Shown: positions 33,862-63,806 of the stretch, piece after piece
Numbering within the stretch: the stretch's first letter is position 1
Layout: each line of letters starts with the position of its first letter
Source: Trypanosoma brucei
Lineage: Eukaryota
Direction: 5' to 3'
DNA: 64,000 nt
Assembly (NCBI GenBank): GCA_000002445.1
Contig: CH464491.1
Span: 3,936,001 to 4,000,000 of the forward strand
The notes under the pieces: generated by a model
What the model was told of the DNA's origin: nothing
Database searches by the model: none
The model's input: the letters and a program-made list of their open reading frames with translations, nothing else
Made by a program: the position numbers and the translations under genes

Positions 33862-35118
33862 AGCTTCTCTTTTTTTTTCTTTTTTTTCTTTTTTTTTGTT
33901 TTATGTGTGTTGCTATTACCGTTTCCGCTAGAGGTTGGTTGGAGTCGGTGCCACTGATCTTGGTCTTGATATTTATTTATTTATTTATTCGTTTTCTGTG
34001 CGATCACTTGTACCGCTTACTTTTTTTTTTTTTGATGTTGTTGTTTTTGTTTAAGTTTCTCCACGTGTATTTTAACCAGCACCTCACTGTAAGCACCGGT
34101 TGGAATGCCCCAAGCTAAAAAGTGTCAACTCCTCAAGCCTCGCTAGTGCGATAAATAAACTTATTTTTTTTTCTTTTCCTTTGTTTCTTCCGTATGTTTG
34201 TGTTGTGTCTTACCTTTAATGAACTGATTTGATTTTTTGTTTTCTTGTGAAGTTCATAAAATGGAAGAAAGTACGAAAGAAATATTCCGAGAGGGACAAA
34301 AAAAGCAGAATGAAATCACTTTTTTTTTTAAAAAAAAAAGAAAGAAAAAAAAAGGATATAAAAGCGCAGGGTTTTGGACAAAGGGTAAAAGCACCAAGAA
34401 AGGAAGGTAATATGGGGAGAAATAAATACATTTCATGACGCTGCAAAGTATGACTACTACATACACAAAAAAGTTTTCGAAAGGAAAAGAAAAAAACAAA
34501 TGGGGGTAATGACGAATTATTTCTTTTTTGTTTGTTCGTTTGTTTGTTTGTCTCATGACTGCTTCCTTTTTTGTTTTCTTCTTCTTTACTGTTGTTGTTG
34601 TCGTTTACAGCTCTGTCTTCTTTGATCAAAAATGAAAAAAAAAATAATAATAAGTGCTCATAAGCATCTGCTAGAGGTGTATAAGAAAAAACGTACAAAA
34701 TATATGTATATATATATATATATATTTAAATACTTTTTATATTTCGGAAACGCGATGCGCGCGTAAATAGAAGGAAAAAAAGTAAAAAAAAGACGAGGAG
34801 AGAACGGGAGGGAGAAAAAAAAAACAAGATCGAAACTAGAAAAAAGTAAGGCTGAAACGAAAGGATTTGACGCTGATTTGTTTCATATAAATCACGTACC
34901 TGTTTCTGATTTATAGTTGTGGGAATTCGTTTTGTGAGGCATAATTTGAAGAAGGTCAAAGCGAGCGGGTGAGTGAGTGGAGAGGTGTGTGTGTGTGTGA
35001 GGGGGGAGAAGAGATATATAAAAAAAGAAAAAAAGAAAAAAACACCCCCACACCTGGTTTGTATCACAACAACGTTAAGTTTTTTTTAAAAAAAAAGAAA
35101 AAAATGAAAAAGGGGGCA

Positions 35119-35160
35119 TATATATATATATATATACATACATACATACATACATACACA
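35119..35160. repeat. Compound microsatellite (TA)n followed by (CATA)n
   Basis: atatatatatatatatatac atacatacatacatacatac, inside the long gene-free interval. Confidence 0.9.
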
Positions 35161-37153
35161 TACACTTATATATTTATATATTTATATAAATATGAAGTTG
35201 TTTCATCACTTTCCCCACACATACACACACTCCTCTCCCCCTCCCCCCTCTTCCCATCATTCGTCATTGCTCCCTCAGCAACAGAGGGTCAATCGCTTTA
35301 AGAAAGAAAAACAAAACAAAACAAAAGCACCATCAAAAAAAAAACGAAGAAGCAAATTATGCAAGTCACAAGCGTTCGAAAAAAACAAACGTAAATATGA
35401 ACTTGCGTCTTACTTCTTGTCGCTGGCACCACCGTTACGTCTTCTTTCTTTTTTTTTCTTCCGTTTTTTTTCTTTCCTCTCTCTCATCGATTGTCGAATC
35501 ACCCGCCCCGGAAACGAGGAAAACATACACAACAACAACAATAATAATTATTATTATTATTATTAAATAATAGGGGGAAAAAAGAGGGAAAAAGCTAACA
35601 ACGAAAAACAAAACGCACGCACTCGCAAGACACATCTATGCAAGTGACAATGAAATTTCTATTAGAGATGAACTGAAAAACATCTATCCAATTGTTCAAT
35701 CACTCTTCTTCTTTTTCTTCTTCTTTTCCTTTCCTCTTATATGCAGACAAGTACATAACACATACGCGTACATAAATGTAAATACATTCATAGATCATAA
35801 CCGTTTGCTCATACGATCAGAAATATATATTTGTCTTCATGTTAGTATTTGTTTATTTACGTGTAAAGATATATATATATATATAACAGAAACAAGAAAA
35901 CAATAAGTAAATAGATATAAACCAAAATGGTCACAACCTCACTTACACCTTCTCATCCATTTATGCTTTCGCGATATTTTAGCAACGATGTTGTGATTTG
36001 TCATGTTTCATTTATCTCACGTTTTGCAGATATTCATTTATTTATATGTTATTTTGCATTTTGCTTCTCTCTTTTTTTTTCTTTTTCCTTTTTTATTTTT
36101 CTTTTTTCTCTTGCCTCCCCTTTTCTCTCCATTTTCTCTTATTATCTCTAAATTTCTTCAACATCCACAGGCATTTCTCCACCACCTCTCTTGTCTCCAC
36201 CCCTTCCTTACAATCAACTGACTGTGGAGTGCAGCAAACTTTAGAAGGGAAAAAAACAATAATAATAATAACACGCCACATCATTCCTCCTTTCAATTCT
36301 TTTTTCATCGTTTTCTCTTTCTTTTCTTTTCTTTTCTTTATCTCAGTCATTCATTTTATTTATACTTTAACATAGTTTTCTCTGATTATTTTTTATTTGG
36401 TATTATTTTGTATATTTACACATTTTATTCATATATCCACTGGCGGCCGACATTTATGTTGCTTTTGTTGAGATTCGAGACTGTTCTTTTTCCTTTGTAA
36501 TAATACAAATTTTGTGACAAAAAAATCAGTGTTACTGTTGTTGTTGTTCCTATTATTATTATAATATATATTATTATATATATACAAAACAATTGGTTTA
36601 CGAAACATATACACATATATTTTTAAAAAAAAGAAATAAAATATATGGTAGATGAAGAAAAAAAATTAACTAAAAAGAAGTGAATGACTGAGCGTATGAA
36701 GGATATGATGCCCAACGGAAGGAAAAATGGTAGAGGGAAATAAGGAAAAGGAATGAGGATACGAAGAGAACAAAAAAAATTCATAAGTCATACAATCCCT
36801 GAAATATATATATATATTTTTATTTATTTACACAACTTGCAATGCGTACCGATGAATAATAACAATAACAATATAATCGAAAAAGATTACCTACAGGTGG
36901 AAAATAACACCCCCCCCCCTCCCCCTTCACTCACCAGGACACCTCTGCTGATGAAACTGCTTGAGAGATTTTGTGATAAGTGTGAGCAAGCTCAAAAAAA
37001 AAAAAATGAACACAGTGAAAGAAAGGGATATGCAACTAATTTATTGGGGGAGGGGGGTTCCGGGAGACATGCCGTCACATCCACACAAAATGCATAGGAA
37101 ACGCTTCCACCCCACACCTCACACCCATCCCTTTGTGTATGCTGGCATTACAA

Positions 37154-40839: not shown

Positions 40840-42888
40840 CTAGGCACGGAAGAACTCGTCATCCTGTTCGGGGTCTCTCGGTGCTGGGTTGTTTGGATCC
40901 ACCTCAGTGCGGCGGAGCGCGTTGGCTGGGGGTCTCGACCGCCACATTATGGGTTTGCCCCGATACTTCACCACTGTGGCCTGTGAACGCTCAAGAGCAC
41001 GTTGGTTGCGCTCCTCACGCTCCGCTAGCTGTTTAGCCAAGTGAAGTACACGAGCTGCATGTCGGCGCTCCTTATCACGAGTTTTCAAGACGGACATGAT
41101 CAGTGACTGCTCTACGCCATTCTTTGGGTCTGTGATGTACCGGTGGTACTCATCTACTTTATTTTCAATAATGGTAAGCATCTCCACTGGCCCCATGTTA
41201 GCACTTGTCTCACTTTCAGCTTGCGTGCCAGTTGGACCAGTGGCACCCGGTGCAACAGCCGATGCGGTCTGGCCTTTCTTCTTACCTTTAGCTGCATTCT
41301 TTTTATCGAGTGCTGGACCTCTATTTGCCACAACAGCAGAATGCTTCCGCTTTCCTGAAGGATGCACTGGGGAGTTCCCGCCATCAACACCATCTTGATG
41401 CCGCGAAGGGTTGGTAGGTCTTTGATTGATGCAGCGAAAAATATCACCTACCGTCTGTTCAATGCTTTTCTTTAGCACTTCTTGTGTCATGGCAACTTTC
41501 ACCGTCTTTGCATAACCCGCTACACCGCGTCCACCTGCACTATCGACCATCGACAGCCCGGCAGCGTCACTGCTTTCTAAATCTACCAGCCGTTCCTCCA
41601 ATTGGGCTAGACGATCTTGGGATTCCTTGATACGAGATACAAGTGAATCCATCTGGGTTTGCCTTTGCTTCACCATCGCATCCATTTCCTCCCGCTCGTG
41701 CAGGAACTCCATGGCAACACGTTCCAACTCCTCCTCCAACTCTTGACTGTTTTGAATAAGGAACAAATTTCCCTCTTCAACATTAATGAAGATGTCAAGA
41801 ATTTGCTCTGGCTCCGTAAAATACATGGGAATTTTATCGTGTGGGTAACTGTTGTGCAGCGCCTCACGAACCTCTTCAGCGGTGAGGGCGCTGATTTCAT
41901 TTCGAATGACTTCCACCTCCTCCGCCTGTCGTCGGTTCGCCTCCTCTTCGAACCTCCGGTGCAGTCCCTCCAACTGAGTCTCAAGGGGAATTAACTCCTC
42001 CTCCTCCTCGTCTTCTTTATTGCTATCATCCATATCATCAAATATAGCGTTGTTGTTCGAGTTTTTCTCAGCCTCTCTTGATGCACGCCGCGCTTCCGCT
42101 TCTTCGTACTGCTTCCTCAACTTTCTGGCCTGCCGGGCATACGCCGCTTCAGTCTCTTGCAATATTTTACCGTTGATTTCCTTGACGCGGAAGTTGGTCA
42201 GCACATCAAAAAAGAACTGAGGTGGCGTGAGGTTGTCCATAAATGTTTTATACTCCATACAGAGCTCCAGTTGCACCTCCGTTTTGCGCATATCTTGCTC
42301 TAAGTGATTTATTTGTGCCGAAAGCTTCTTAATATCAATGAGTCGTTTCTGTTTGGCCTTACTCTCACGTTCCGCCCGGCGCACGGCAGCGTCTTGTTCC
42401 AAGTTACTGTATTTGAGAAAGTTATTAAACTTCTCCTCCGTACTGGCAAGCTGCTCCTGTTGCTGGCGAAGTTTCTTGTCAACGCGGTCCATCTCCTCCT
42501 CAAGGTGCCGTATTTCCGACTCCTTATTTGCCAGGGCCAACCGCATCAGACCAACCTCTCTTTTTTTGGCAATAAATGTTCCTGTGTTGTGCATCTCCCT
42601 AATCTCCACCGTGTGCTGACCACTTTTATTGAGGTGCGATGGAGCAGAACCTGTAGTGGCATTCTCACGCTGCGTGAGCAGTTGCTTCACGGGGTTTTTT
42701 ACATTCGGCTGGCCGGTTAAGATGGCGAGATCTGCTGCCATTTTGGCATCGCCCTGTTTGATATCCTGCGCAACTGTAACCTCATGCTCATTAATCGTAC
42801 CGGGAAGGTCTCCGCCGCCGCCACCGCTGCTTCTTAAGGGTTCCTTAAAGGGATTACTCGCTAGAAGTGGAGACTTCTGGAAAGACAT
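40840..42888 (-). CDS. Coiled-coil protein (possibly a cilia/flagella-associated CFAP-like protein)
   Basis: The listed ORF reads through a (TA)n microsatellite to give YIYIYIYIYG. The start is re-assigned to the ATG at 42888 (MSFQKSPLL), about 682 aa. It contains long heptad regions and an acidic stretch DDMDDSNKEDEEEEE. Confidence 0.75.
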   Translation of the reverse strand: MSFQKSPLLASNPFKEPLRSSGGGGGDLPGTINEHEVTVAQDIKQGDAKMAADLAILTGQPNVKNPVKQLLTQRENATTGSAPSHLNKSGQHTVEIREMHNTGTFIAKKREVGLMRLALANKESEIRHLEEEMDRVDKKLRQQQEQLASTEEKFNNFLKYSNLEQDAAVRRAERESKAKQKRLIDIKKLSAQINHLEQDMRKTEVQLELCMEYKTFMDNLTPPQFFFDVLTNFRVKEINGKILQETEAAYARQARKLRKQYEEAEARRASREAEKNSNNNAIFDDMDDSNKEDEEEEELIPLETQLEGLHRRFEEEANRRQAEEVEVIRNEISALTAEEVREALHNSYPHDKIPMYFTEPEQILDIFINVEEGNLFLIQNSQELEEELERVAMEFLHEREEMDAMVKQRQTQMDSLVSRIKESQDRLAQLEERLVDLESSDAAGLSMVDSAGGRGVAGYAKTVKVAMTQEVLKKSIEQTVGDIFRCINQRPTNPSRHQDGVDGGNSPVHPSGKRKHSAVVANRGPALDKKNAAKGKKKGQTASAVAPGATGPTGTQAESETSANMGPVEMLTIIENKVDEYHRYITDPKNGVEQSLIMSVLKTRDKERRHAARVLHLAKQLAEREERNQRALERSQATVVKYRGKPIMWRSRPPANALRRTEVDPNNPAPRDPEQDDEFFRA

Positions 42889-42914
42889 GCGGTCGTAGGC
42901 CTTTCTACTCGTTC

Positions 42915-42943
42915 CATATATATATATATATATATATATATAT
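42915..42943. repeat. (TA)n microsatellite immediately upstream of the coiled-coil protein start codon
   Basis: atatatatatatatatatatatatatatat. It is responsible for the spurious YIYIYIYIY N-terminal extension in the ORF track. Confidence 0.95.
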
Positions 42944-44027
42944 TTCACAAAGGTGTGAGAAAAGGAATGATTATATAAATGGTAAGGCGCCAGTGCAAGA
43001 GTTTCCGTGTGCACATATATAAATACTTACCCAACAACACTTGCGTAAGAAATAATTGAAGATAATATCTTTAAAAGAAAACACTTCACGACGTTATCAG
43101 CACTGCACGGGTGAGCACACCACACACTCACATTTTGACAGCACGACAACAAAAAATGCAAGAATTCGTGCCGGCAATATATATAAAAAAAGAAGTTAAA
43201 CGGAGAAGTGGTGAAAAAATGGAAAAAAAAGGCAAATAATGTTTAATAGTGAAAAAGAGGCCCTCTAACGGTTGGCAGTAAGGGGATGAAAGGGAGAAAC
43301 GGGTAAACGGAAAAAAGGGAATGATAAAACTGACAGCACTGACAGTTCCCCTATCCCTTTGCACTAAAAACGAAGCTGTAGGGAGTAAATAGGAGCTTTA
43401 CACACAAAGACACAAACATACACACACACAAAGAAAAAAACAACTCCAGTGTAATTTCACCAAGTCGCAGCAGGAAACAGCGGTAACGCTCATTAGCCCT
43501 TCACTTACTTCAGGTGTTGTAAATCTTACAAGTATTTGGACGGTACAAACCGAGAGGTGGGTGAGCAAAAGAAAGAATAACAATAATAAATGAAATATCC
43601 CTCTCTTCCCACCACCTCCTACACATTATCTATCGTCTCTCTCCTTTGTGTCCCCCCCTTTTTTTCTCTCCTACTTGGTCATGGTATAAGTTCACTACTC
43701 CAAAACAGAAAAGAAAAGAGAAGAGAAAAAAAGCAGAAACAACATACACATACACATAATACTCCCCTCCTCCCTCCCTCATCTCATCTCATCTCATCTC
43801 CTCTCGTGGATTGTGTGGTTGCAGTGGAGTTACCTCCGGCACAATAATACCCGGTGGTTTGTCGCCCTGTCGTCTCACTTCATAATCCGCTGAATCAAAA
43901 AACTGCTTTTGTCCCGGTTGCTGAAGATTACGCAAGCGGGGGTCGCGTTTCTTTGGCATCTTCACACCAGGAGGAGGTGAAGCATTGTCAGACATCACCA
44001 CCTCAGGTAAACAAGAGCTGCTAAGGT

Positions 44028-44863: not shown

Positions 44864-45820
44864 CTACAAGTCGAAATTCATGAACACTGAATCCTTATCA
44901 GGTTGTTTGCGAACGTCTTCAGCAGCGTCAGAGCCACCTTCAGTGGTGTCACCATTCGATTTAGCATTAGGCTTCCGTAAGACTGTGAAACTCAGCGGGT
45001 CATCCTTTGAGTACTGAACGCCCTTCACAACCACCGATTCCGCTCCTTCCGCCCCTTTCATTTTGTCCTGTGACGTACCTTTTGAAATAGATGCCTGCCA
45101 CTTCTCGTACTTCTCCAACCGTCTTACTTCTGCCTCTATGCTCGGCTCCACCCCAACGCAAACAGCCGTTACGGCCTTCTCTACAGGAAAAGGCGGAGCC
45201 GTAATATTTCGCATCTCCAAATACCCACCGCACAGTCGCTGCTCCAATTCACTCAGCAACTCAACCTCTCTCACAAGGCTTGTCATGGCATCTTCTTCTT
45301 CATCCATAACACGCGTGCAGAACACGTGAACGGCCTTTGTCTTGACAGCTTTGAGTATTCGTGAGTCCTCTTTGCTGTAGTGCTGCGCTAGTGGGTATTC
45401 CGATTCTCCATTATCGTACACACGAATGCGCATGTCGGCACGGAAGTGCAAAGCATAGTCATCAAACAAACTATCGTTACATATCTTTTCCAGCACCTCA
45501 GCGCCTCGAAGCTCGCTTGTGGCGTAATCACGTCGTTTTAATTTATTATCTTTTCCAAGGCGGTGGCTCGAAAGAAAAGTGGCACCACCTCTTCCACCGT
45601 AGCGGATAGATTCATTCATGCGTCTACCCAAATGTCCCGCGAATGCGATGCACGCAGAGCAATCCAGAAAGGCGTAAGTAGGTTCATGGATGCGGAAAAG
45701 TGGATCACCAACAGTCGCCGCCTCGACCAAAGATATAGAGCCAATAATTGCAAGCAGCTGGAATATCTTGGAAATGATGGAATAATAAGATTGCGAAGTG
45801 TTACTCAGTCGTGCATACAT
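44864..45820 (-). CDS. Putative secretory-pathway protein with N-terminal signal peptide/anchor (possible saposin-like DUF3456/canopy-type)
   Basis: The listed ORF starts at GTG, so I use the first ATG at 45820 (MYARLSNTSQSYYSIISKIFQLLAIIGSISLVEAATVG). Conserved cysteines are visible (LDCSACIAF...VLEKICND). It ends with an acidic region. Confidence 0.55.
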   Translation of the reverse strand: MYARLSNTSQSYYSIISKIFQLLAIIGSISLVEAATVGDPLFRIHEPTYAFLDCSACIAFAGHLGRRMNESIRYGGRGGATFLSSHRLGKDNKLKRRDYATSELRGAEVLEKICNDSLFDDYALHFRADMRIRVYDNGESEYPLAQHYSKEDSRILKAVKTKAVHVFCTRVMDEEEDAMTSLVREVELLSELEQRLCGGYLEMRNITAPPFPVEKAVTAVCVGVEPSIEAEVRRLEKYEKWQASISKGTSQDKMKGAEGAESVVVKGVQYSKDDPLSFTVLRKPNAKSNGDTTEGGSDAAEDVRKQPDKDSVFMNFDL

Positions 45821-46372
45821 TGGTTGCCAACACTTGTCTCTAAACAAACACCCTCTCACACCCTCGGTCCCTCGTAAGGCACGGGTGCAATGTGAATCCT
45901 CCCTGCGTACCTTAAGTTTTTCCTCCTTATCTAGCGCCCCTCAAGCGTATGCAATATTCATGTGACGTTAAGTTCCGACAACAAGAGAAGAATGTACGAA
46001 AGAAGAGAATATATCGCAAGTAGGAGTTATACCTCAATAGATATCCGATCAAAAGGAGACGAGCATGCAAACTGCTGGGAAACACGACAAGTAAACAAAA
46101 CGAGTCGGTTGTAGAAACAGGTAAAGATCTACGAAATAAGCATACGAAACACCCTTCTCCATGTCAGCTCTATCATCCTTTCAGTGGGAGATATGCTTAC
46201 GTGTCGTGCGGGTCTTTCCTCGCCACCCCCCCCCCCTTCTCTCTTACCAACGCCTTTTAACAACAGTAGTACTCAATTCTAAATAGCGTCATAGTTTACA
46301 TAGACACAGCACCGACAGATGTTAGTGCGTTGCCTCCTCCTCCCTCCTTGTTTTTGCTCCGCATCGCGTTGC

Positions 46373-47278
46373 TCACAGCTTGTCCCCGTTGGTGGACGTC
46401 ATAACCGACACCTCATTCTCTGCAACAGGAGTGGTAGTTTCACCCCCCTTCTCAACATCTCCTTCTCCATTTTCGCTGTGGACAAATGTCCAGTAGTTTT
46501 CATCTTTCATTGGACCACAAGGGGTGCCGGGATTGTTGACGAACCTCCCACAGCACACCTCGTTCTCTGGACCAAAGTCATTGAAAAACACGGCTTTCGA
46601 GCTCGCTAGAGGGGTATTTGTGTGGTTATGGCGTATTACTAACACGGCGTCAGCCTTGATGGGGAGATCCCGCATATCCTCTCGGTGGTCCGGGTTTGCA
46701 AAGTCAGCCACCCACATTGCCTCAGCAGACGCACCATCAGGTGAGAAAAATACATCCTGGTGCTTTCCGGTCACTTTAGATGCGCTGAGAGGTCCTTTGG
46801 GCTCGGACAGAAGCGAAAGGGGGTTGTCGCACAGCTCTGGTACTGTCATAATAAAGAAGGGCTGTCCATAATGCACAATATCCTGCTCATCAGGAGGTGC
46901 AGGGATCATGTCAGTGGGACCAGTGGGGGCGGGCACAAGTACAAAACAGTTGCGCAAAGCAGGTCCAGCAGCAGGTGCGGTGGAGCAGGCAACGTGCCAA
47001 CCAGTTGGTCTTAGAGTACGATCCTCAAGGTCAAGTGAGAGAAACCCAAGCGTCGCCGCATTTTGAAGCATAAGAGGAGCATAGAAATGTAAATAACCAT
47101 CCTCATGAGGTTCGGCCATTGGGTATGCTGAGTTGTGGTGCTTTACCTTCGCAATGATACGCTGTGTCTCACGGGCAGCATCTACAACACCACGGTCACA
47201 ACTATCCAGGAGGCGCTTGCGATCCCGCATATACGCCTCCTCCTCAAACCAGTTGCCCAAAAGCGCTTTCCTCGGCAT
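46373..47278 (-). CDS. Conserved hypothetical protein
   Basis: 301 aa, ATG verified (MPRKALLGNW). No domain is recognised. Confidence 0.6.
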   Translation of the reverse strand: MPRKALLGNWFEEEAYMRDRKRLLDSCDRGVVDAARETQRIIAKVKHHNSAYPMAEPHEDGYLHFYAPLMLQNAATLGFLSLDLEDRTLRPTGWHVACSTAPAAGPALRNCFVLVPAPTGPTDMIPAPPDEQDIVHYGQPFFIMTVPELCDNPLSLLSEPKGPLSASKVTGKHQDVFFSPDGASAEAMWVADFANPDHREDMRDLPIKADAVLVIRHNHTNTPLASSKAVFFNDFGPENEVCCGRFVNNPGTPCGPMKDENYWTFVHSENGEGDVEKGGETTTPVAENEVSVMTSTNGDKL

Positions 47279-47915: not shown

Positions 47916-48602
47916 CTATACAACTCTTCTTTTGTTGAAAATACGCCGCAGGTACCACACATTACCTAAACTCATTGCTATGATGATGAGAATTTCCGCC
48001 ATGGCCCAAACGAATACACGAGTGTTTGCCACCTCGGTAACGGCGCGATGTTTGTGTTCGCGGCCTCTGATGTACTGCTGAACCTCAAGTACCTCTCGTA
48101 ACCCATGTTGAATATTCCTCACAGCCAATTCAATGGGATCCATTCCCAAATCGCTTTTCTTATCCTTTTTACCATCCTCACCCTCCAACCCCTCATCCCC
48201 CACTGTAATGGAAAATGCAACCACCTTCGCGCTGATGGTACTCATCTTATTCGAGAAACAAAAGCGGTGGCGGCCGGAACCCCTCGATTTGAATAACACA
48301 CGACCCTCAGTATCACGGCCTGATGACCAAATCATCGAGTTGTCGGGATTTTTGATGGTCGCCTCAATATCTTGAGATCCTCCTGAGGTCACCAAGTAAT
48401 GCAAGAACACCTTTACCCCAGCTTTATTAATATCCTCAAAGAAACACAATTCTTTCTTGGGCGGCACTTGGACGGAAATCGCATCATCGTCTGCGCGAAC
48501 TGTGGTGATGAAAGTGGAAAGTGTTACTAACAACAAACCCAACGGCAAAGATAAGCGAGCAATCGTACCACTCACACGCAGAGGCATCGCGCGCATGGTC
48601 AT
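47916..48602 (-). CDS. p24/emp24/gp25L (TMED) family cargo receptor
   Basis: The listed ORF starts at TTG, so I use the first ATG at 48602 (MTMRAMPLRVSGTIARLSLPLGLLLVTLSTFITTVRA, a signal peptide). It has a GOLD-domain-like region (FCFSN), then a coiled-coil, a single C-terminal TM and a short basic tail (WAMAEILIIIAMSLGNVWYLRRIFNKRRVV). Confidence 0.82.
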   Translation of the reverse strand: MTMRAMPLRVSGTIARLSLPLGLLLVTLSTFITTVRADDDAISVQVPPKKELCFFEDINKAGVKVFLHYLVTSGGSQDIEATIKNPDNSMIWSSGRDTEGRVLFKSRGSGRHRFCFSNKMSTISAKVVAFSITVGDEGLEGEDGKKDKKSDLGMDPIELAVRNIQHGLREVLEVQQYIRGREHKHRAVTEVANTRVFVWAMAEILIIIAMSLGNVWYLRRIFNKRRVV

Positions 48603-51251
48603 TAAGAGTACTGCCAACTTAATCAGATCTATTCCTTTTAGTCCGTATTTGCTGTGGATACCGCTGTCTCTGTTTCTTTTTTTTTTTCTCTCCCTTCCTC
48701 CAGCAATCAATGACTTTATTCACTGAGGTGTCGCCCCCTGCTACCGATATCTGCTGTTACCCCCTTTGTTCTTTTGTCTAGCGTCTGCGATCAGAATGCA
48801 ACTACTTCCGATGCAAATAAATCAGTCAGCACACCGTGTGTCACTAACGAAATGCGGGGGGAATATAAATATATATAAATATATATAAATATATACAGAA
48901 AGATATACGAAAAGAAAGAAAGCGTGCGGGGTTCTTTCCTCCACGGCACAAACCGTTTATAATTTTGTCCCTCGCAGCCTACTTACTGTATCAGCTATTT
49001 AACCCCTCCCCCTAAAAAAAACTTGTGCTCGCGTTACCTCTAAATTTAAAAAATAATCGACCAAATTTACGAGGTTCAGTAGCGAGTAAAGAATAAAACA
49101 AATAAAAAGGAAAGGTAGAGAGAGAGAGAGAAAAAAAAAAAAGAGGAGATGAACGTCGGTTTTAAACAAAGACTCAGGCGCAAGTGCAAAAAAAGTAAAA
49201 GAGAAAAAGGAGCAGGGCAATATCTGCTAAGGTGTACGCCTCCGTGTGAAAATGAAAGCACATCAAGTAAGATATTTTTCAGTGTTTTGGTTCTCTCACG
49301 AGTCCGTTAGCTCCCAAGTACGCAGCCTTACTTACTGAGCAATAATAACAATAATAATAATAATAACAATAGGAAAAGAAGAAGCGGAAGCGACACACGT
49401 AAAAAAAAAAAAAAAGAAGCAGACATGGGCATATTTCATTTGACCTTCCGTAAGGTGACATTTACCTTTTGCTTGAACGCATTGTGTTACGTAGTACGTG
49501 TGCGAGGAATCTTCTAAGTACCTGCTGGCACCCGTGGCAAGCAGTTATGATTTAAAATAAAAAAAAGAAGGAAAGAAAGAAAGAAAAGAAAGGAAAAAGT
49601 CTGAAAAGAGTGAGGTCCGCACTCGAAACAACAGGGAAAAAAAGTAGCAGAGTCATTTGTGAGCAAAGCCACACAGCGAAGAAAAACAAAACACAGAAAA
49701 ATCGAAATAACAAGAAAATGTGTATAGTCTTCCGATTCGAATGCACAGATACGAAAAAAAAAAAACAGCAGCGCTCCAAAAGAAAAAAAAAGTGAATGGA
49801 TTTATTGATACTTTTTTTTTTCTTGTATCATCCCTCTTCCATCAACAACTTCTTTTCTTTTCCCCACTTAACCACAATTTCTTCATATAAGCCTGCCCAT
49901 GTGTATCACACTCTTCTCTTTTTTTTTTCTTTTTATTTCAGAAGTGCACAACATAAAGAACCGCCGTCGGTAGCCCACGTGCGGGTGATAATATTTTCCA
50001 TTACTCCACCACAAGGATGGAAGAAAAAGAGAAAATAAAAAAGGAAAAGATGAAAAGGGAAAGAAAACACAAAATTGAAGTTTCCCCCTCCACACACACA
50101 CATTTTTCTCTCCCTCTTCTGCAGACCTTTCATTCTCACTTTCACAATGTGGTAGCGGCTTTCATGAAGTTATAACCGCACCGATATTGTCATTTACGCC
50201 ATATTGTTTGACTCGCATTGCTGACGCCAACATTTCTTTCCCTTTTCTCTCGTACTTCCATTCATTCATCCATACTTTCCACCTCGGCACCATCCACAGG
50301 TAAAGGGAAAAAAAAAGAAGTAAAAGAAAAGACACACAAACACACAGATACCACAACGCATTTGCAGTGCGTAGAAAGGATAGGAAGAAAGTGAGAAAAA
50401 AACAAATATATATATATATAACAATACACTGCTCTCGTCAGCAAAAAGAAAAACAGCAACAGAACTAAGTGACGTACAAGGCTACCTTCGCACGCTGAGC
50501 AACTGGGGAAAAATATGTGGGGACATTCCTCTCTTATTTCTCTTCCGTTCCCGTTTATCGGCTACAACCCGACTTCCGCTCCCCCACACGTCAAATAAAC
50601 TTTCCTCACTTTCGTTTCACACAACTTATATTTCATCTCTTTTCCATTCACATTTTCTCCTCTCTTCTCCTCTCCCCTATTCATTCTCTACTCGCCCAGC
50701 CACGCATAGAAGCAGGAAAAGACAGGAAAATGAAGAGAACGGTAAATAGCACCAAAAAGTAAACAAAAATTTGTATGATATATAAATATATAACACGACC
50801 CAGAAGCATACGGCACTCGCGCCGGCATATACACACATCTCCTTTCCTTCAACACAAGCTCAGGTGAGTGAATTGACAACAAATAAAATTATTCAACTAC
50901 TGAGTGACTTTTTGTTTTACTTCCACTCATAAAGACCGTTTGGTCCCGCCCGCCCATACTCGCACATTTCAATGGAATTCGACCATAGAAAAGGTACTCA
51001 TAAAACCACACCGCCTTCGCGCAACAAAAAAAAAAGAAAAGAAAAGTGTAGACGCGAGGTAATTTTGCCTTCCCTTTCATTTCCATCCTTCGACTCCCAC
51101 TTATCCCACTGTTCCCTTCACCCCTAAACAAATGAACACACAAAAACACACTCTCACACATTTCTTCTTTTTCATGCATCTACTTCCCATTTTCCCCACG
51201 CCTTCCTTGGATTTCTTCCGCTTTATTGCTTACAATCCACCCTATTCTCGC

Positions 51252-52010
<759 letters not shown>

Positions 52011-56464: not shown

Positions 56465-57271
56465 TCAGGTACTCAACTCACATAACCGCTTTCGTATGTT
56501 GGTGGAACTCACTCTACTCTCCTCATCATCGCAGACTCCTACATAAGGAACCAACACACACTCTAGCGGCTTAAGACCCACCGACAGTCGTGCTGTGTTG
56601 ATGGAAGGCAAAGCGCCAACAGTTTCCGGTGAAACCACAAGTGCCTCCAACGAGGGATCACTATCGGCCCCACCAGCGCGGTCTGCAATGCCGGCCACCT
56701 CAAGGCCAAGGTCTGGCCGTAGCAAATGGGCAAACTTTGTAACAGCTGCGCAGCGTACTTCAAACGGCTCGATGAGGTCGGCATGAATCTTTGTAGTTAG
56801 CATCGTGGACACCGTTACACCAATCCGAAGGACCTGCGTGGCGTGCAGCAAAGCAGTAGTAAGCAACAGTTTGTGACCTCCGTGCAGACGATCGAAAGTC
56901 CCACCGACTGCAACACCTTTGTACACCGGATTGAAGCCGCAATTAGGTGTCATTAATGAGGCCGTAAAGAGTGGTAACTTGTGTCCCTCCCGGCTATTTG
57001 TATTGCGATTAGGCGTCTCATAGTACTCTAAAGGCGCCAGTGGGACAACAGTGACAGATGTCCTTGGATTATGTCGTACAGCCACATCGTATAATACCTT
57101 TATGTGCTGGAGCGCCGTATCCCGATGGCCGTCATCTACTCGCAAGTGGACCTGCAGCGGGTTGTGAGGCTCTCCAGCTGGTTTTGTGCCACAGAGCGCG
57201 GTAAGGTGGGAAAACAACACGGTGCAATTCCTTTCCAGACCTGCGGAGGTGCCTAACAGAAGCGGATCCAT
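56465..57271 (-). CDS. Phosphopantetheine adenylyltransferase (PPAT/CoaD-like nucleotidyltransferase) with an N-terminal extension
   Basis: The listed ORF starts at GTG, and the first ATG is at 57271 (MDPLLL...). The cytidylyltransferase (H/T)xGH motif is present in GGTFDRLHGGHKLLL. The PPAT-type ISSTxIR motif is VSSTNIRKRL near the C-terminus. A later ATG at ~56953 (MTPNCGF...) would give a canonical domain-only protein. Confidence 0.75.
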   Translation of the reverse strand: MDPLLLGTSAGLERNCTVLFSHLTALCGTKPAGEPHNPLQVHLRVDDGHRDTALQHIKVLYDVAVRHNPRTSVTVVPLAPLEYYETPNRNTNSREGHKLPLFTASLMTPNCGFNPVYKGVAVGGTFDRLHGGHKLLLTTALLHATQVLRIGVTVSTMLTTKIHADLIEPFEVRCAAVTKFAHLLRPDLGLEVAGIADRAGGADSDPSLEALVVSPETVGALPSINTARLSVGLKPLECVLVPYVGVCDDEESRVSSTNIRKRLCELST

Positions 57272-57532
57272 CTGAATTTGTGGTAAACCTAAACGTAACA
57301 ACTTGCCGTTATGGCCAATTTCACGCTGGTGATGGACAATTACGAATGTGAGAGGGGAAGGAAGCAGGAAAGAGTCTACGTGGACGCAAGGGAAAACGTG
57401 TAGCAATACACGCACACGCTTTCATTCTCAACTGACCCCCACAAGATGGTTACAACACAAAAAAAAAAGACACTGAATGGTTGTTCGCTTCGACTCAGCA
57501 CGCTTTTCATGAGACACGCCGAGAGTCCTCAA

Positions 57533-58630
57533 TCAAGGCACCGTAAGGTCCTCCCAGTACGGATTGTCATGATCACTGGACACACCCTCTGGATCGCTCA
57601 GCCAACGCGAGTCACAGCGAAACACTCGGAAGTGATGGTTCAGTTCTTGAATAGCGTGAATTGAGACAGTGGAACCCAAACCACCGTGCACAGGGTTGGG
57701 GAAACAGTAGAAAACACGCCTCACCCTGCTGTGAACAAGGGCCATGGAGCACATTACGCAAGGCTCATGACTAACAAACATGTCCATACCATTGGCGAGG
57801 TACGACGCGTCGCCTTCAACCTCTCGGTCTTTACACTGCTTGCGAGTGACTTCCTTTAACACGAATGTTACAGGATGATCCAGCACCACTCGATTGGATT
57901 TGCGGCACCCGGAATTGGAAACATAACCAAGACACGCTGCACTATTCCCCCGTTTAAGTGCGTGCTCCTCACCACTAGAAACAAGCACGCGGTAACCATC
58001 AGAGGGATCAACTAATACCGCCGCAATCCCAAGGGTTTCGTCCGTGCGAAGCCGCTTTGCTAACGGCATAACCACCGTACGAAAAATGCGCTGGATGCTC
58101 CCCATCTCGCACTCCGACAACTGTGTCGGTGCACGTGGCTTTGGTGTGGCGAAAGGCCAAATCTGACACCATTTGGTCCATTCCTCGGCGGAACTGCGCG
58201 GTGCCCTATCCGGAACCCACACCCTGTGCACGGCAACAGTAGTATCCGCTGCTGACTCAAGTTCTTTCAACGCACTGCTGTCTACGGGACCGCCAACGCT
58301 CAAAAGGAGCTCCAGTATGTGGCTATTTTCTGCCGCTGGGGTACCTAAAGCGGCACTGTTTCTCTCACAGCCGTCAGAGATCGTACTAGTGGCAACGGAG
58401 CTGTCACGTTTATCGCAAATAACACCCCCAGCAAAGCCATCCATGGGAGCAGTGGCAACTCGGGTCGCCGAAGAACGGCGGATACGCTTCAGATGGCAAG
58501 CATGTGGCTTGAGGGGGAGTAATTTGTTGGCAATACTCAGGAACATGGTGCACAAGCGTTCCTGCTGCACGTACGTGGCCAAAGCACTTACAAGTTTGGG
58601 GGGTTCCTCCGGTACCACCACCTCCTCCAT
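57533..58630 (-). CDS. ADAT3: tRNA-specific adenosine deaminase subunit, ADAT3/Tad3-like (CDA-fold deaminase lacking the catalytic Glu)
   Basis: 365 aa, ATG verified. The zinc-binding motifs are DHPV (H-x-V instead of HAE) and SHEPCVMCSMALVHSRVRRVFY (PCxxC). Confidence 0.7.
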   Translation of the reverse strand: MEEVVVPEEPPKLVSALATYVQQERLCTMFLSIANKLLPLKPHACHLKRIRRSSATRVATAPMDGFAGGVICDKRDSSVATSTISDGCERNSAALGTPAAENSHILELLLSVGGPVDSSALKELESAADTTVAVHRVWVPDRAPRSSAEEWTKWCQIWPFATPKPRAPTQLSECEMGSIQRIFRTVVMPLAKRLRTDETLGIAAVLVDPSDGYRVLVSSGEEHALKRGNSAACLGYVSNSGCRKSNRVVLDHPVTFVLKEVTRKQCKDREVEGDASYLANGMDMFVSHEPCVMCSMALVHSRVRRVFYCFPNPVHGGLGSTVSIHAIQELNHHFRVFRCDSRWLSDPEGVSSDHDNPYWEDLTVP

Positions 58631-59030: not shown

Positions 59031-59855
59031 CTACTTGGCAGATTGCTGGTCATGTGAGACACGAATCACCCTCAGATGCTCCCCCGTGTAGCGCTCCGCC
59101 GTTACAGTAACATTCACGGGATAACACCTATCATTAGGGAACGTACCTCGAATCACCTCCATCAACTCCTCAACATCATTTTCGCGTATGGCGACAATAT
59201 AGCAAACTCCACGGCTAGATAGAAAAGATGGAAGTTTCGAAATAAAGCGATCAACCACCACGCGGCCCCGAGGTCCCCCACACCATGCCGCCGTTATGAG
59301 ATCCTTCCCAGCTTCCGCGCTCTGAAGTTCCTCCATTGTCGTTGGGACGTACGGAGGATTGAAGAGTATCACATCGAATGTGAACTCCTCCTTTTCCTCC
59401 TTTGTGTATTCTGTAATGTCACTCGCTTCATGTTCAAAAGGACTGAACAAATCACCTCGGTGAAGGTGAAGTGGCAAGATTGTGTCTCCTCCAATAATGC
59501 GTTTTTGCGTATTGTGCCAAGTAATACTCGTTGCCTCGAGAGCAACTGGGTTCACATCAACAGCGTGAAACTCTGCTGTTGACTTCTCAGCACTGCCACT
59601 ACCTAAGTTACCACCCTCCGTAGCTCCCAAGAGAAGGAGCATCAAATGCGAAATGACAGTGCCCGACCCGCAGCCAATTTCTACACAGCGCCGAGGTTGC
59701 AGCGCGCGGAGAAGATGAGCATCCTTGTCAAGCGCCTCCAGCAACAGAAATGTGTCCGCCTCCGGTTCGTAGACGTTAGTCCGAAAGCGCTCCTCCGTGA
59801 TGCAGTGGAGGTAGTCTGGGGTAACTGCCATGAGCGGGAACCACTGCTGTGTCAT
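59031..59855 (-). CDS. Mtq2/HemK2 (N6AMT1)-like protein methyltransferase (eRF1 glutamine methyltransferase family)
   Basis: 274 aa, ATG verified. It has the SAM-binding VEIGCGSG motif, the NPPY motif in FDVILFNPPYVP, and an N-terminal YEPEADTFLLLEAL characteristic of Mtq2. Confidence 0.82.
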   Translation of the reverse strand: MTQQWFPLMAVTPDYLHCITEERFRTNVYEPEADTFLLLEALDKDAHLLRALQPRRCVEIGCGSGTVISHLMLLLLGATEGGNLGSGSAEKSTAEFHAVDVNPVALEATSITWHNTQKRIIGGDTILPLHLHRGDLFSPFEHEASDITEYTKEEKEEFTFDVILFNPPYVPTTMEELQSAEAGKDLITAAWCGGPRGRVVVDRFISKLPSFLSSRGVCYIVAIRENDVEELMEVIRGTFPNDRCYPVNVTVTAERYTGEHLRVIRVSHDQQSAK

Positions 59856-60131: not shown

Positions 60132-61175
60132 CTACACCATATCAAGTCCCACACATGTAAGGGGAGGAATGCGAATGCGCTTTAATTCATCCAAAAGCAA
60201 CAACTCACTACGTTCGTTCAACTGCATGACCGAAGTTTCCGAAAATGCCTGTACAATATCATGCCTACTGATTCCTGTCAAACCGTCAAAGACAGTAACC
60301 TCCCCGACATCGCCAACATCATCACAGGTATCGCTAACACATTCAACAAAACTTTCCACGCATTGTTTCCTGCGGCCCCGCACATGAAGTTCGCCGATGT
60401 GGAGGTACGCTCCCAGTTTCTCTAAAAAAGTGTCGGACACGCATGGCCCCTTCTTTACATCGTTTCCAATCACCAACGTGCGCCGCAACACTAAACTGTC
60501 CACCTTATTGACACCACCCTCACCGCCAGCGGGGCACTCGGAGATTTTCGTAAGATTAGAGACGAACAAATTGCGCAACAGTACCCACGGTGAATGAGGA
60601 AGGTACGCGATGAGCAACGCATGCGGGTGACCAGGAATATATGCACCGTACAGATTGCACTCTTCCATCACCACTCCCAATTTATCGCAGCACTTCGTGT
60701 GCACTTCAGTAGCCACAGGGTCAAAGAAACAAGCCCTGACGGTGGGCGTAGAAGGTTGCAGACCATCCCCATTGTTAGAAGGGACTGATGATAACTTCGA
60801 TCTGATCAGATGTCGGACGAAGGACTCGCACTCCGATTGTAAAACAATAAATAGAGCCATCTGTAGAAACCCTGCACGTGACTCCTCATACGTAAACGGT
60901 CCAATACCTAAAGCAACGAGTTTGATTCCGGTGAGACCATTGGAATGCGCATTCAGAAAATGTCGTAGTGGGGAGATGACATCCCTCCGCACGAACGCCA
61001 ACCCCCGGAGGAACCGCGCAGCCTTGCGAAGATGCTTCACCTCTGCTGCGGTACTTCGGGACGGGATTGTTGTAACTAATGAGGAGACGCCTTTGCCACC
61101 ACCCGCTGATTTCGCGGCATTGGCTTCTCGACGTCTGCGTGAGGGTTGCTGCCGCTGCTGCACAACGGTCCACAT
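60132..61175 (-). CDS. SRR1-domain-like protein
   Basis: The listed ORF starts at TTG, so I use the first ATG at 61175 (MWTVVQQRQQ...). The SRR1-like blocks are IKLVALGIGPF, CFFDPVAT and LLIAYLPHSPWVLLRNL. Confidence 0.55.
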   Translation of the reverse strand: MWTVVQQRQQPSRRRREANAAKSAGGGKGVSSLVTTIPSRSTAAEVKHLRKAARFLRGLAFVRRDVISPLRHFLNAHSNGLTGIKLVALGIGPFTYEESRAGFLQMALFIVLQSECESFVRHLIRSKLSSVPSNNGDGLQPSTPTVRACFFDPVATEVHTKCCDKLGVVMEECNLYGAYIPGHPHALLIAYLPHSPWVLLRNLFVSNLTKISECPAGGEGGVNKVDSLVLRRTLVIGNDVKKGPCVSDTFLEKLGAYLHIGELHVRGRRKQCVESFVECVSDTCDDVGDVGEVTVFDGLTGISRHDIVQAFSETSVMQLNERSELLLLDELKRIRIPPLTCVGLDMV

Positions 61176-61577
61176 GAGGCAAACACCACAGACACAGAGT
61201 GCCAGCGTGCAACTTATAATGCATAGTAAATAAAAAAGAGGAAAGGCCAAGAGAAAGGAGAACACCTGACAACAAAAAAAAACGGAAGGAACAATCACGT
61301 TGCAGGGGACATAACGTACTTCCCTCGTTGACCACCTCCGGCGGTCCCTGTAGTGAAGTGCCAACAAGCAAAGGAGTTAAATGACTAATAACGGAAAAGT
61401 GAACAAGGAGCTACATGAGGGGAGAAGCATAAGCGATCTTGCAAATGCAACCCACGTCCGCCTCTACGCGCTTTTACCACTAACTCTCCAGCATTTCCTC
61501 GGAGAAAAGTTTTTTTTTTTAAGGCACAGAAAACTGGTTCTAAGTGAAGAAATAAAACAAGTAACAGTGACACCAAC

Positions 61578-63806
61578 TCAACTATCAGCCGCTTCCGTGA
61601 TTAGACGCAGCCGTTCAACGGCCATTGCGAGCAAGGCAAATGTAGGAATGAATGCACGAAGGTGCGCGCCACGTTCCAATTCAAAAGTTAGAATATCCGA
61701 AATTTTATCAAAGTCTTCTACTGTCTGCGCTACTGGGATTGCCGTCCCAAAACTTTCCAAACCTTCGTAACGCCGTTTAATTATATCATTCACGGAATTC
61801 TGTAAGGCAATAACAGCTTCCTTATGCTCACGAAGGGAACACTCTGAAAGTTGGCACTTTTCCTGCCGGAGTTTGCCGGAAGCTCCCCGGCATTTTAGCT
61901 CTTTTTCCATTTTCCCAAGTTGATCAAGCAGAGACTTGCATCCGCCTGTGAGCGAAGTGGCAACAGCCTCGACGGTATCGCATGGTCCAGTAGCGAAGTT
62001 CATTGCGACAGGGTTGCCATCACAGGCAGCATTGCTACACCCACTTCTCCGTTGGACTTCCCGAAGCTTCAGTTCAAGTGATGCATTCCTCTGACGGAGC
62101 TCCTCAAGTGCCCACGAGAGTGCCGAGTTGTTGTCGCGGTCGCGGGTTAAATTAAGGTCGCTTCCCCTCACCTTTTTTTCAGGACTGCGCACAGCGTCTT
62201 TTATTGGGATCGATTCACCTGTTCCTTCAACTGGTGCACTAAAAAGGGGATTATTCCCTTCCCCACACTGCAGCCGTTCCCGTAGCCGCTGATTAGCTTT
62301 GACAGCCTCATTCAACTTGCTATGCCATTCCTGGGTTGCACGCCGAAGCGCACCTTGACCCTCTTCCAGTTTCCCAACTCTAAGAACTAAACTGGATACC
62401 ACCTGCCTCACACGGTCCATACCCTCCTCTCCATTCGACGATCCCTCTGCAGTGGGAATTTTCATATCTTCCCGGTTAACTTGCACTGAGTGATTGGGGG
62501 GTTTGCACATGGCCGGAATCTGCCTTTTATCCACCTTCTCCCCTGGGGTGAGGACATCACCCATCAAATTCGTGTCGTCGCATAAAACTTCCCCTTTTGG
62601 CATCGGCTTTTTGGATGAACCGACATTGATTTCTGTTTCTCGCACTTCGGGTGAGGCAGCCGCACTAATCTTCCCTTTCATTGTAGCGTCACGCGACCCG
62701 GCACATGAACCGCGCGCAGTAGATGACTTGTCCGAAGGTTTGTGAAGGCAACTCGCATAGCTGCCATTTTCTATCCCTCTAGGTATCTGCGTGCACCTCT
62801 GACCACTCTCCCTTCGCTCCAGCTGTCGCGCCCCTCTCACGGAATCATCCGCCCCACAGGGCCCAAAACTGGAGGCAGAAAGCAAAACCTGACTACTGGA
62901 AAGCGAAGGTCCGCCAGAAGCACCCACCTGTTTTCGTCGCAGCCTTCCCTCTGCGGTGGTGTAGTATATTACCGACATAAACCGAATAAGCCGCAAACTT
63001 CCACGGGGAGCGGGCTGTGGATCAGGAATAGCTACGAGGTGGGTCACAGCGGCAGGTGGAATGAAATCACGCATTGCGGAAGTGAAGAACTTGCAAGACT
63101 GAAAAGTTTGGCTTTTACCCACACCACCGCTGCGCAGCAACAAAGACAACTGGAGCAAAGCCCCAGAGTCGCACCCCATTTCGGCAACCACAAGTGAACC
63201 ACCACCTTCGAGTTCAATCCGAAGCAGTAAAACCGATTCCCGCTGCAACGTTCCTCGAATCAGATGCACATGCCGCTCGTGGATGAGCTGCACGAACGCG
63301 CCCCACTCTGAGGATAATCCCCCACAATTCACGTCGAAGCGCTGCACCTCCTCCCACCAATGTATATCCTGCTGCTTCAATAAGTCCCGAGCCTTCGTCC
63401 CCTTCACCCTGAACGATATCGCGGATACCAGTACTTGCGATGGGTGCTGAGCACCCGTAAAAACTGCTGACAGCAACCGTGTAAAGAGATCCATCGCAAC
63501 TTCCAGCTTCTCTCCCGCTGCCTTTACAGCCCCTTTTATAATTTTGCTGCCGCAACCTCCCTCGTCATCGTCTTCAGGCAACACAACCACCAGGGCAGCA
63601 TTTCCGCCGTCCCGAAGCCTTGCGAGTAGGGGATCAACCACGTGTCCCACTGCGTCGTGGGCCGGGCTCAACACGTGCGAAAAGAAATGGGGACCTGAGC
63701 ACTGGTCGTGCCGTACCACCAAACCATCTTCAAATACGCCATCGAAGAAGTCCGTACAGCGAGCCTCGTGAGGAATAATGCAAAAAGTGCGTAAGGTCGG
63801 GTCCAT
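61578..63806 (-). CDS. Kinesin-like protein with degenerate motor-domain motifs (putative pseudo-kinesin) plus C-terminal coiled-coil
   Basis: 742 aa, ATG verified. The N-terminal ~300 aa follow the kinesin motor layout: LRTFCIIP, then FFDGVF, then VVDPLLARLRDGGNAALVVVLPEDDDEGGCGSK (in the P-loop position, not GQTGSGKT), then VSAISFRVKGTKARDLL, then LLLRIELEGGGSLVVAEMGCDSG (in the DLAGSE position). The C-terminal half is coiled-coil. Confidence 0.6.
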   Translation of the reverse strand: MDPTLRTFCIIPHEARCTDFFDGVFEDGLVVRHDQCSGPHFFSHVLSPAHDAVGHVVDPLLARLRDGGNAALVVVLPEDDDEGGCGSKIIKGAVKAAGEKLEVAMDLFTRLLSAVFTGAQHPSQVLVSAISFRVKGTKARDLLKQQDIHWWEEVQRFDVNCGGLSSEWGAFVQLIHERHVHLIRGTLQRESVLLLRIELEGGGSLVVAEMGCDSGALLQLSLLLRSGGVGKSQTFQSCKFFTSAMRDFIPPAAVTHLVAIPDPQPAPRGSLRLIRFMSVIYYTTAEGRLRRKQVGASGGPSLSSSQVLLSASSFGPCGADDSVRGARQLERRESGQRCTQIPRGIENGSYASCLHKPSDKSSTARGSCAGSRDATMKGKISAAASPEVRETEINVGSSKKPMPKGEVLCDDTNLMGDVLTPGEKVDKRQIPAMCKPPNHSVQVNREDMKIPTAEGSSNGEEGMDRVRQVVSSLVLRVGKLEEGQGALRRATQEWHSKLNEAVKANQRLRERLQCGEGNNPLFSAPVEGTGESIPIKDAVRSPEKKVRGSDLNLTRDRDNNSALSWALEELRQRNASLELKLREVQRRSGCSNAACDGNPVAMNFATGPCDTVEAVATSLTGGCKSLLDQLGKMEKELKCRGASGKLRQEKCQLSECSLREHKEAVIALQNSVNDIIKRRYEGLESFGTAIPVAQTVEDFDKISDILTFELERGAHLRAFIPTFALLAMAVERLRLITEAADS

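What the first reader, a model, noticed from the sequence alone, without database searches (positions are those of the whole stretch)
61578..63806. Kinesin-fold protein with degenerate nucleotide-binding motifs (candidate pseudo-motor)
The N-terminal ~300 aa are collinear with a kinesin motor domain (RTFCIIP, FFDGVF, ...DLL, then the switch regions). The P-loop position reads PEDDDEGGCGSK instead of GQTGSGKT. The switch II position reads AEMGCDSG instead of DLAGSE. An acidic insertion sits where the ATP phosphates bind. This predicts loss of ATPase activity while the microtubule-binding scaffold is retained, followed by a long coiled-coil. Such dead kinesins can act as regulators or structural cytoskeletal components.
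Basis: partly seen in the sequence, partly recalled or inferred. Interest (0 to 1): 0.6.

Follow-up and report, generated by a model that had tools for sequence, protein, structure and literature searches.

The report
Dead kinesin-fold protein of trypanosomes
This Trypanosoma brucei gene encodes a protein whose first ~290 residues have the shape of a kinesin motor but have lost every ATP-binding motif, making it one more non-motor "pseudo-kinesin" of a kind already known in this parasite and in yeast.

The parts
61578..63806 (-). Whole ORF: 742 aa plus stop. T. brucei chr 11 'hypothetical protein, conserved' (XP_829589.1 / Q381Q4), probably Tb927.11.15310.
   Evidence: Gene ID inferred from the neighbours Rab2B (Tb927.11.15240) and ADAT3 (Tb927.11.15280).
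62925..63806 (-). Kinesin-motor-like domain, aa 1-294 (beta1 to alpha6).
63537..63581 (-). Former P-loop site, aa 76-90 (LPEDDDEGGCGSKII). L76-G83 aligns to KIF5B G85QTSSGKT92, with Lys91 opposite Glu82 and Thr92 opposite Gly83.
   Evidence: Low pLDDT. Least conserved element of the domain, 0.23 against a mean of 0.46. No G-x4-GK[ST] anywhere.
63237..63257 (-). Former switch I site, aa 184-190 (RGTLQRE), aligned to KIF5B E199-H-SSRSH205.
   Evidence: No SSRSH-like motif in any family member.
63165..63185 (-). Former switch II site, aa 208-214 (AEMGCDS), aligned to KIF5B V230-DLAGSE236. The gamma-phosphate sensor Gly234 is opposite Cys212 and Glu236 is opposite Ser214. L11 is largely deleted.
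   Evidence: The family consensus is VDxGSxx.
63063..63167 (-). Counterpart of alpha4-L12-alpha5, the tubulin-binding face in kinesins, aa 214-248. The family motif (R/K)TxPP(R/H)xPL reads QTFQSCKFF in T. brucei.
   Evidence: L12 has low pLDDT.
62451..62924 (-). Predicted disordered linker, aa 295-452. No neck-linker or neck coiled-coil lies next to the head.
   Evidence: pLDDT 30-50. Not conserved in A3.
62256..62450 (-). Long single helix, aa 453-517. Candidate dimerisation coiled-coil.
   Evidence: pLDDT 80-91. Heptad a/d hydrophobic fraction 0.61. Weak coiled-coil-type Pfam hits at the equivalent place in the orthologue P0002.
62046..62138 (-). Second helix, aa 557-587, carrying the conserved EELRxRNxxLExE motif. 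Candidate coiled-coil.
   Evidence: a/d hydrophobic fraction 0.75.
61581..61976 (-). Conserved family-specific C-terminal helical domain, aa 611-742. Motifs: GCxSLxxQL, EHxxAV, ATAxD...LxFExERxxHLRAFxPTFAQLAVAxEH.
   Evidence: High pLDDT helices at 611-642, 655-677 and 696-739. Invariant G, E and R. No Pfam or PDB relatives.

Best explanation
The gene encodes a kinetoplastid-specific pseudo-kinesin. Its N-terminal 290 residues are a true but extremely diverged homologue of the kinesin motor domain. [quoted passage not shown] It also lacks a neck-linker or neck coil next to the head. This much is shown or follows directly from sequence and structure prediction. The following is inferred by analogy with Vik1/Cik1-Kar3, KIN-B-KIN-A and TbPH1-KifX2A. 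The protein probably works as a non-enzymatic cytoskeletal subunit. The central helices (453-517 and 557-587) would pair it with a partner, either itself or more likely a catalytically active kinesin. The conserved C-terminal helical domain would bind a kinetoplastid-specific partner or cargo. The dead head would serve as a static binding module for tubulin or another protein.
Against: There is no experimental datum for this protein. No paper mentions it and no localisation could be retrieved. PF00225 does not detect it. A partner kinesin is purely hypothetical. The helices are short for a kinesin stalk, and coiled-coil formation was judged only from a crude heptad count. Tubulin binding is doubtful: L11 is truncated and L12 has diverged in T. 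brucei. The isolated KIN-B head does not bind the spindle.
Confidence: 0.75

Rival explanations
1. It is a stand-alone, rigor-like microtubule-associated protein. A homodimer of dead heads would bind microtubules statically, as proposed for kinesin-11/KIF26 or NOD-like non-motile kinesins, and cross-link or mark a microtubule subset without any kinesin partner.
For: The family conserves part of L12, the main tubulin-contacting loop, as (R/K)TxPP(R/H)xPL, and alpha4 as LxxLTLxL. Helices suitable for dimerisation are present.
Against: L11 is mostly deleted, and T. brucei has lost the PP(R/H) motif. The alpha4-L12-alpha5 segment has no marked positive charge. The analogous KIN-B head does not bind the spindle.
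Confidence: 0.25
2. The kinesin fold has been repurposed as a protein-protein or small-ligand binding module unrelated to tubulin. The new functional site would be formed by the family's most conserved surface motifs (IPHxAR after beta1, FSxVL-SPAHD before alpha1).
For: These N-terminal motifs are the best conserved elements (mean identity 0.64-0.74), while the old catalytic loops are the worst. They correspond to the kinesin RxRP/FDxVF region that borders the nucleotide pocket.
Against: Some of these positions are also core-packing positions in ordinary kinesins, so conservation may reflect fold stability only.
Confidence: 0.2
3. It is a still-active, highly unorthodox ATPase or motor that binds nucleotide with non-canonical residues.
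For: T. brucei has a Gly-rich GGCGSK string near the site. Most relatives keep the switch II Asp (VDxGS).
Against: GGCGSK does not fit G-x4-GK[ST] and is absent from all orthologues. The loop varies from about 8 to about 70 residues and is low-complexity. The switch I Ser/Arg and switch II Gly/Glu are all replaced. There is no neck-linker.
Confidence: 0.03
4. It is a decaying gene or a chance resemblance: not a functional protein, or not a kinesin relative at all.
For: There is no Pfam hit. T. brucei's copy is shorter (742 aa against 800-1030) and more diverged than its orthologues.
Confidence: 0.02

Closest known systems
Vik1 / Cik1 motor-homology domain (partners of the yeast kinesin-14 Kar3; PDB 2O0A, 4GKQ)
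   Different: The Vik1 domain is C-terminal and directly abuts the coiled-coil, whereas here the head is N-terminal and separated from the helices by about 160 disordered residues. There is no sequence relationship beyond the fold (8-12% identity). The lineages differ (fungi versus kinetoplastids). A partner kinesin is known for Vik1 and unknown here.
T. brucei KIN-B (Tb927.7.5040), the inactive kinesin of the chromosomal passenger complex
   Same: Same organism. [quoted passage not shown]
   Different: It is a different gene, on chromosome 7 rather than 11, and did not appear among the 25 profile hits. KIN-B has been recognised as a kinesin in the literature since 2006-2008, whereas this family escapes PF00225. 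KIN-B has no equivalent of the conserved C-terminal domain described here, and its partners (KIN-A, CPC) are known.
TbPH1 (Tb927.3.2490), kinesin-like partner of KifX2A at the microtubule quartet
   Same: A kinetoplastid kinesin-like protein with a probably dead N-terminal head, a coiled-coil and a C-terminal non-motor domain. It acts as a partner of an active kinesin (bioRxiv 10.1101/2021.09.29.462327).
   Different: TbPH1 retains a recognisable Walker A with only two substitutions and has a PH domain. Here the whole P-loop is gone and the C-terminal domain is an unrelated helical module.
Canonical kinesin motor domain (Pfam PF00225; e.g. KIF5B 1MKJ, Eg5 1II6, KIF2C)
   Same: Same fold and the same order of all secondary-structure elements from beta1 to alpha6. 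Residual sequence motifs remain: FxxVL, GxN-beta3, (E/N)RH in alpha3, hhVD at the end of beta7, TYxP in L12, hhhxxxP in beta8 and TxxxLxF in alpha6.

Membership tests
Kinesin superfamily (motor-domain fold) | Three-layer alpha/beta/alpha kinesin motor fold with elements beta1 to alpha6 in canonical order | tested here: met
   [not shown]
Kinesin superfamily (motor-domain fold) | Match to Pfam PF00225 (Kinesin) above the gathering threshold | tested here: not met
   No PF00225 hit at E<=10 for the window protein, three full-length orthologues or 20 N-terminal domains.
Kinesin superfamily (catalytically competent motor) | P-loop / Walker A GxxxxGK[S/T] | tested here: not met
   No match anywhere in the protein or in any family member. 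The aligned site reads LPEDDDEG.
Kinesin superfamily (catalytically competent motor) | Switch I NxxSSRSH | tested here: not met
   The aligned site reads TLQRE, and no SSRSH-like string occurs in the family.
Kinesin superfamily (catalytically competent motor) | Switch II DxxGxE | tested here: not met
   The aligned site reads EMGCDS in T. brucei, and the family consensus is VDxGSxx. The Gly234 and Glu236 equivalents are lost.
Kinesin superfamily (catalytically competent motor) | Microtubule-binding elements L11-alpha4-L12-alpha5 | tested here: inconclusive
   Alpha4, L12 and alpha5 are present and partly conserved, but L11 is about 15 residues shorter and T. brucei's L12 has diverged.
Kinesin superfamily (catalytically competent motor) | Microtubule-stimulated ATPase activity / motility | not testable with these tools
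   Needs recombinant protein assays.
Pseudo-kinesins / motor-homology-domain proteins (Vik1, Cik1, KIN-B, TbPH1) | Kinesin fold without a functional nucleotide site | tested here: met
Pseudo-kinesins / motor-homology-domain proteins (Vik1, Cik1, KIN-B, TbPH1) | Coiled-coil heterodimerisation with a catalytically active kinesin | not testable with these tools
   Helices 453-517 and 557-587 are predicted, but no partner can be identified computationally here.
Pseudo-kinesins / motor-homology-domain proteins (Vik1, Cik1, KIN-B, TbPH1) | Sequence orthology to a named member (KIN-B, TbPH1, Vik1) | tested here: not met
   A profile search of 1.84 billion representatives returned only 25 proteins. 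All inspected share this family's own N-terminal domain and, where full length, its C-terminal motifs, and the only T. brucei-group protein is this one. Identity to Vik1 is 8-12%.

The most novel reading that the evidence does not exclude
This is an ancient, kinetoplastid-wide pseudo-kinesin family that standard kinesin HMMs cannot see. Its head has been converted from an ATPase into a binding module with a new conserved surface (IPHxAR / FSxVL-SPAHD). With its unique C-terminal helical domain, it would form an obligate regulatory subunit of an as yet unpaired 'orphan' trypanosome kinesin. It would thereby control a lineage-specific cytoskeletal process such as subpellicular array, flagellum attachment zone or cytokinesis dynamics.
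Probability: 0.25. Interest if true: 0.6.

Novelty: new member of a known kind. Interest (0 to 1): 0.4.

Why it matters
Trypanosomes have one of the largest kinesin repertoires known: 47 confident kinesins plus a similar number of divergent kinesin-related proteins. Why they have so many is unexplained. In the two cases studied so far, KIN-B and TbPH1, a dead kinesin is the partner that gives an active kinesin its localisation or specificity. Showing that this 'hypothetical protein' is a third, more extreme pseudo-kinesin conserved across kinetoplastids gives it a testable function and a clear experiment: find its partner and its location. It also illustrates that structure-based searches recover kinesin relatives that Pfam misses, so kinesin-fold counts in divergent eukaryotes are underestimates. 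The gene is parasite-specific, but nothing here makes it a drug target.

Tried and rejected
(1) Pfam on the protein, its orthologues and 20 N-terminal domains gave no kinesin hit.
(2) phmmer and the 3-sequence profile against PDB sequences found nothing. Kinesins (kinesin-5, E=0.024) surfaced only with the 20-sequence profile.
(3) Two of the three word-index homologue searches, with the N-terminal profile and with the N-terminal sequence, returned nothing, not even the query itself. The exhaustive representative search supplied the family instead.
(4) hhalign against the single KIF5B sequence was not significant (E=0.25). Adding Eg5 and using global mode gave E=2.4e-4.
(5) The afdb50 fold library was unavailable.
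(6) Literature look-ups for Q381Q4, Tb927.11.15310/15250, neighbouring IDs, old-style IDs and catalogues of structure-detected kinesins found nothing on this gene. The TrypTag supplements held as text lack the per-gene table.
(7) The C-terminal domain profile had no Pfam or PDB relatives. The SPICE, DUF6468 and Tako8 hits are sub-threshold noise.
(9) I considered identity with KIN-B or TbPH1 and rejected it: different chromosomes, different domain content, and neither appears among the profile hits.

Full report
OBSERVATION. The window contains an uninterrupted ORF at 61578-63806 on the minus strand, 742 codons plus stop. It lies in a run of same-strand genes typical of a trypanosomatid polycistronic unit. 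The protein is 99% identical to 'hypothetical protein, conserved' of T. brucei gambiense. It clusters at 90% identity with the 742-aa proteins of T. b. brucei TREU927 (XP_829589.1, UniProt Q381Q4, chromosome 11) and T. equiperdum. The downstream neighbours are an SRR1-domain protein, a methyltransferase, ADAT3, a cytidylyltransferase-like protein and a Rab. The ADAT3 neighbour matches PDB 8AW3 at E=2e-250. ADAT3 is Tb927.11.15280 (PMC9643335) and Rab2B is Tb927.11.15240. Assuming the window's Rab is Rab2B, IDs rise with the window coordinate, so this gene is most probably Tb927.11.15310. That ID is an inference from gene order.

IS IT A KINESIN? Sequence HMMs say no. Pfam reports no PF00225 match at E<=10 for the protein, for three full-length orthologues or for any of 20 N-terminal domains. 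phmmer against all PDB sequences finds nothing. An exhaustive profile search of 1.84 billion representative proteins with the N-terminal domain finds only 25 proteins. Those I inspected share this family's own N-terminal domain, and the full-length ones also share its C-terminal motifs. None is an ordinary kinesin. The named members are Trypanosoma, Leptomonas and Angomonas, and the rest are environmental contigs. UniRef already names the T. conorhini, L. seymouri and A. deanei orthologues 'Kinesin motor domain-containing protein'. The T. brucei entries remain 'uncharacterized'.

THE CATALYTIC SITES. The alignments and the model's secondary structure agree on the register, as follows.
- P-loop: KIF5B G85QTSSGKT92 aligns to L76PEDDDEG83. 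The catalytic Lys91 sits opposite Glu82, and the Mg-ligand Thr92 sits opposite Gly83.
- Switch I: S201SRSH205 aligns to T186LQRE190.
- Switch II: D231LAGSE236 aligns to E209MGCDS214. The gamma-phosphate sensor Gly234 sits opposite Cys212, and Glu236 sits opposite Ser214.

Regular-expression scans find no Walker A, SSRSH or DxxGxE motif anywhere in this protein or in any of about 30 family sequences. The P-loop site is the least conserved element of the domain, with mean column identity 0.23 against 0.46 overall. Its length varies from a few residues to about 70 low-complexity residues. The acidic PEDDDE string is therefore a feature of the T. brucei / T. conorhini lineage and not a conserved device. 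The nucleotide pocket was abandoned before the sampled kinetoplastids diverged. Its FFDGVF = FDxVF equivalence was not, because the true counterpart is FFSHVL at 41-46.

OTHER MOTOR ELEMENTS. L11 is about 15 residues shorter than in KIF5B. Alpha4, L12 and alpha5 are present, and the family keeps LxxLTLxL and (R/K)TxPP(R/H)xPL, which recall kinesin SLSALGNVI and TYVPYRDSK. T. brucei itself reads QTFQSCKFF at that point. Alpha6 runs on as a helix to about residue 294 and is followed by about 160 residues of predicted disorder. There is therefore no neck-linker or neck coil next to the head. Whether the head still binds tubulin cannot be decided here.

THE REST OF THE PROTEIN. The full-length model (using alignment A3) shows five regions.
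- 1-294: the kinesin-like head.
- 296-455: disordered.
- 453-517: a helix with pLDDT 80-91.
- 557-587: a helix carrying the conserved EELRxRNxxLE motif.
- 611-739: a confident helical domain.

The last region coincides with the family's strongest C-terminal conservation: GCxSLxxQL, EHxxAV and ATAxD...LxFExERxxHLRAFxPTFAQLAVAxEH, with invariant G, E and R. This domain has no Pfam or PDB sequence relatives. A crude heptad count is compatible with coiled-coil formation by the two central helices. Orthologues have longer helical regions with weak coiled-coil-type Pfam hits. 'Followed by a long coiled-coil' is thus only partly right, and the conserved C-terminal module is an additional feature.

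MECHANISM. Three things are shown: the kinesin fold, the absence of all nucleotide-binding motifs, and family-wide conservation of the head and the C-terminal domain. From these I infer that the protein cannot act as an ATP-driven motor. By analogy it would act as a non-enzymatic subunit, with the central helices mediating dimerisation, the C-terminal domain binding a lineage-specific partner, and the dead head acting as a static binding module. The analogies are Vik1/Cik1 with Kar3 (known to me; cited in the TbPH1 preprint), KIN-B with KIN-A (PMC10987093) and TbPH1 with KifX2A. The choice between a heterodimer with an active kinesin, a homodimeric static MAP and a tubulin-independent scaffold remains open. 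I could find no localisation, interaction or phenotype data.

VERDICT. The core interpretation, a kinesin-fold pseudo-motor, is supported. The microtubule-binding and 'long coiled-coil' sub-claims are unproven or only partly right. Interest is moderate, at 0.4.

Noticed in passing
window 17716-21234 (-), repeats 17733-20202: A 1172-aa ORF with no Pfam hit is built from 33-bp (11-aa) units nested in higher-order repeats of about 207, 366 and 375 bp at 91-98% identity. This creates long overlapping ORFs on both strands (849 aa on +, 835 aa on -) and a strong local AT skew of -0.35. It is probably a repetitive trypanosome structural or surface protein.
   Followed up: partly
window 34001-36000: GC content falls to 0.33, against about 0.47 elsewhere, in a stretch with no ORF of 250 aa or more. 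It may be an AT-rich intergenic or repeat region inside the polycistronic unit.
   Followed up: no
window 1-64000: All ORFs of 250 aa or more that look like genes lie on the minus strand, indicating one polycistronic transcription unit of T. brucei chromosome 11. Identified neighbours are a TCP-1 chaperonin subunit (4920-6704), a UVB-sensitivity/DUF domain protein (22599-24416), a DnaJ (28601-29560), a DUF4200 protein (40840-43014), a DUF3456 protein (44864-45859), a CFAP161-like protein (46373-47278), an emp24/p24 protein (47916-48710), a Rab taken to be Rab2B (51252-52007), a cytidylyltransferase-like protein (56465-57415), ADAT3 (57533-58630), a small-domain methyltransferase (59031-59855) and an SRR1-domain protein (60132-61367).
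   Followed up: partly
[not shown]
   Followed up: no
orthologue P0002 (T. conorhini), precomputed annotation: P0002 carries the Pfam accession PF28159.1, which is absent from the local Pfam copy. I could not determine what that family describes or which part of the protein it covers.
   Followed up: no
P0029 (2134 aa, environmental or Logan contig), residues ~1450-1688: One distant family member has the pseudo-kinesin domain embedded far inside a 2134-aa predicted protein that has multi-pass membrane-like N-terminal regions. This is probably a gene-model fusion, though it could be a different architecture.
   Followed up: no
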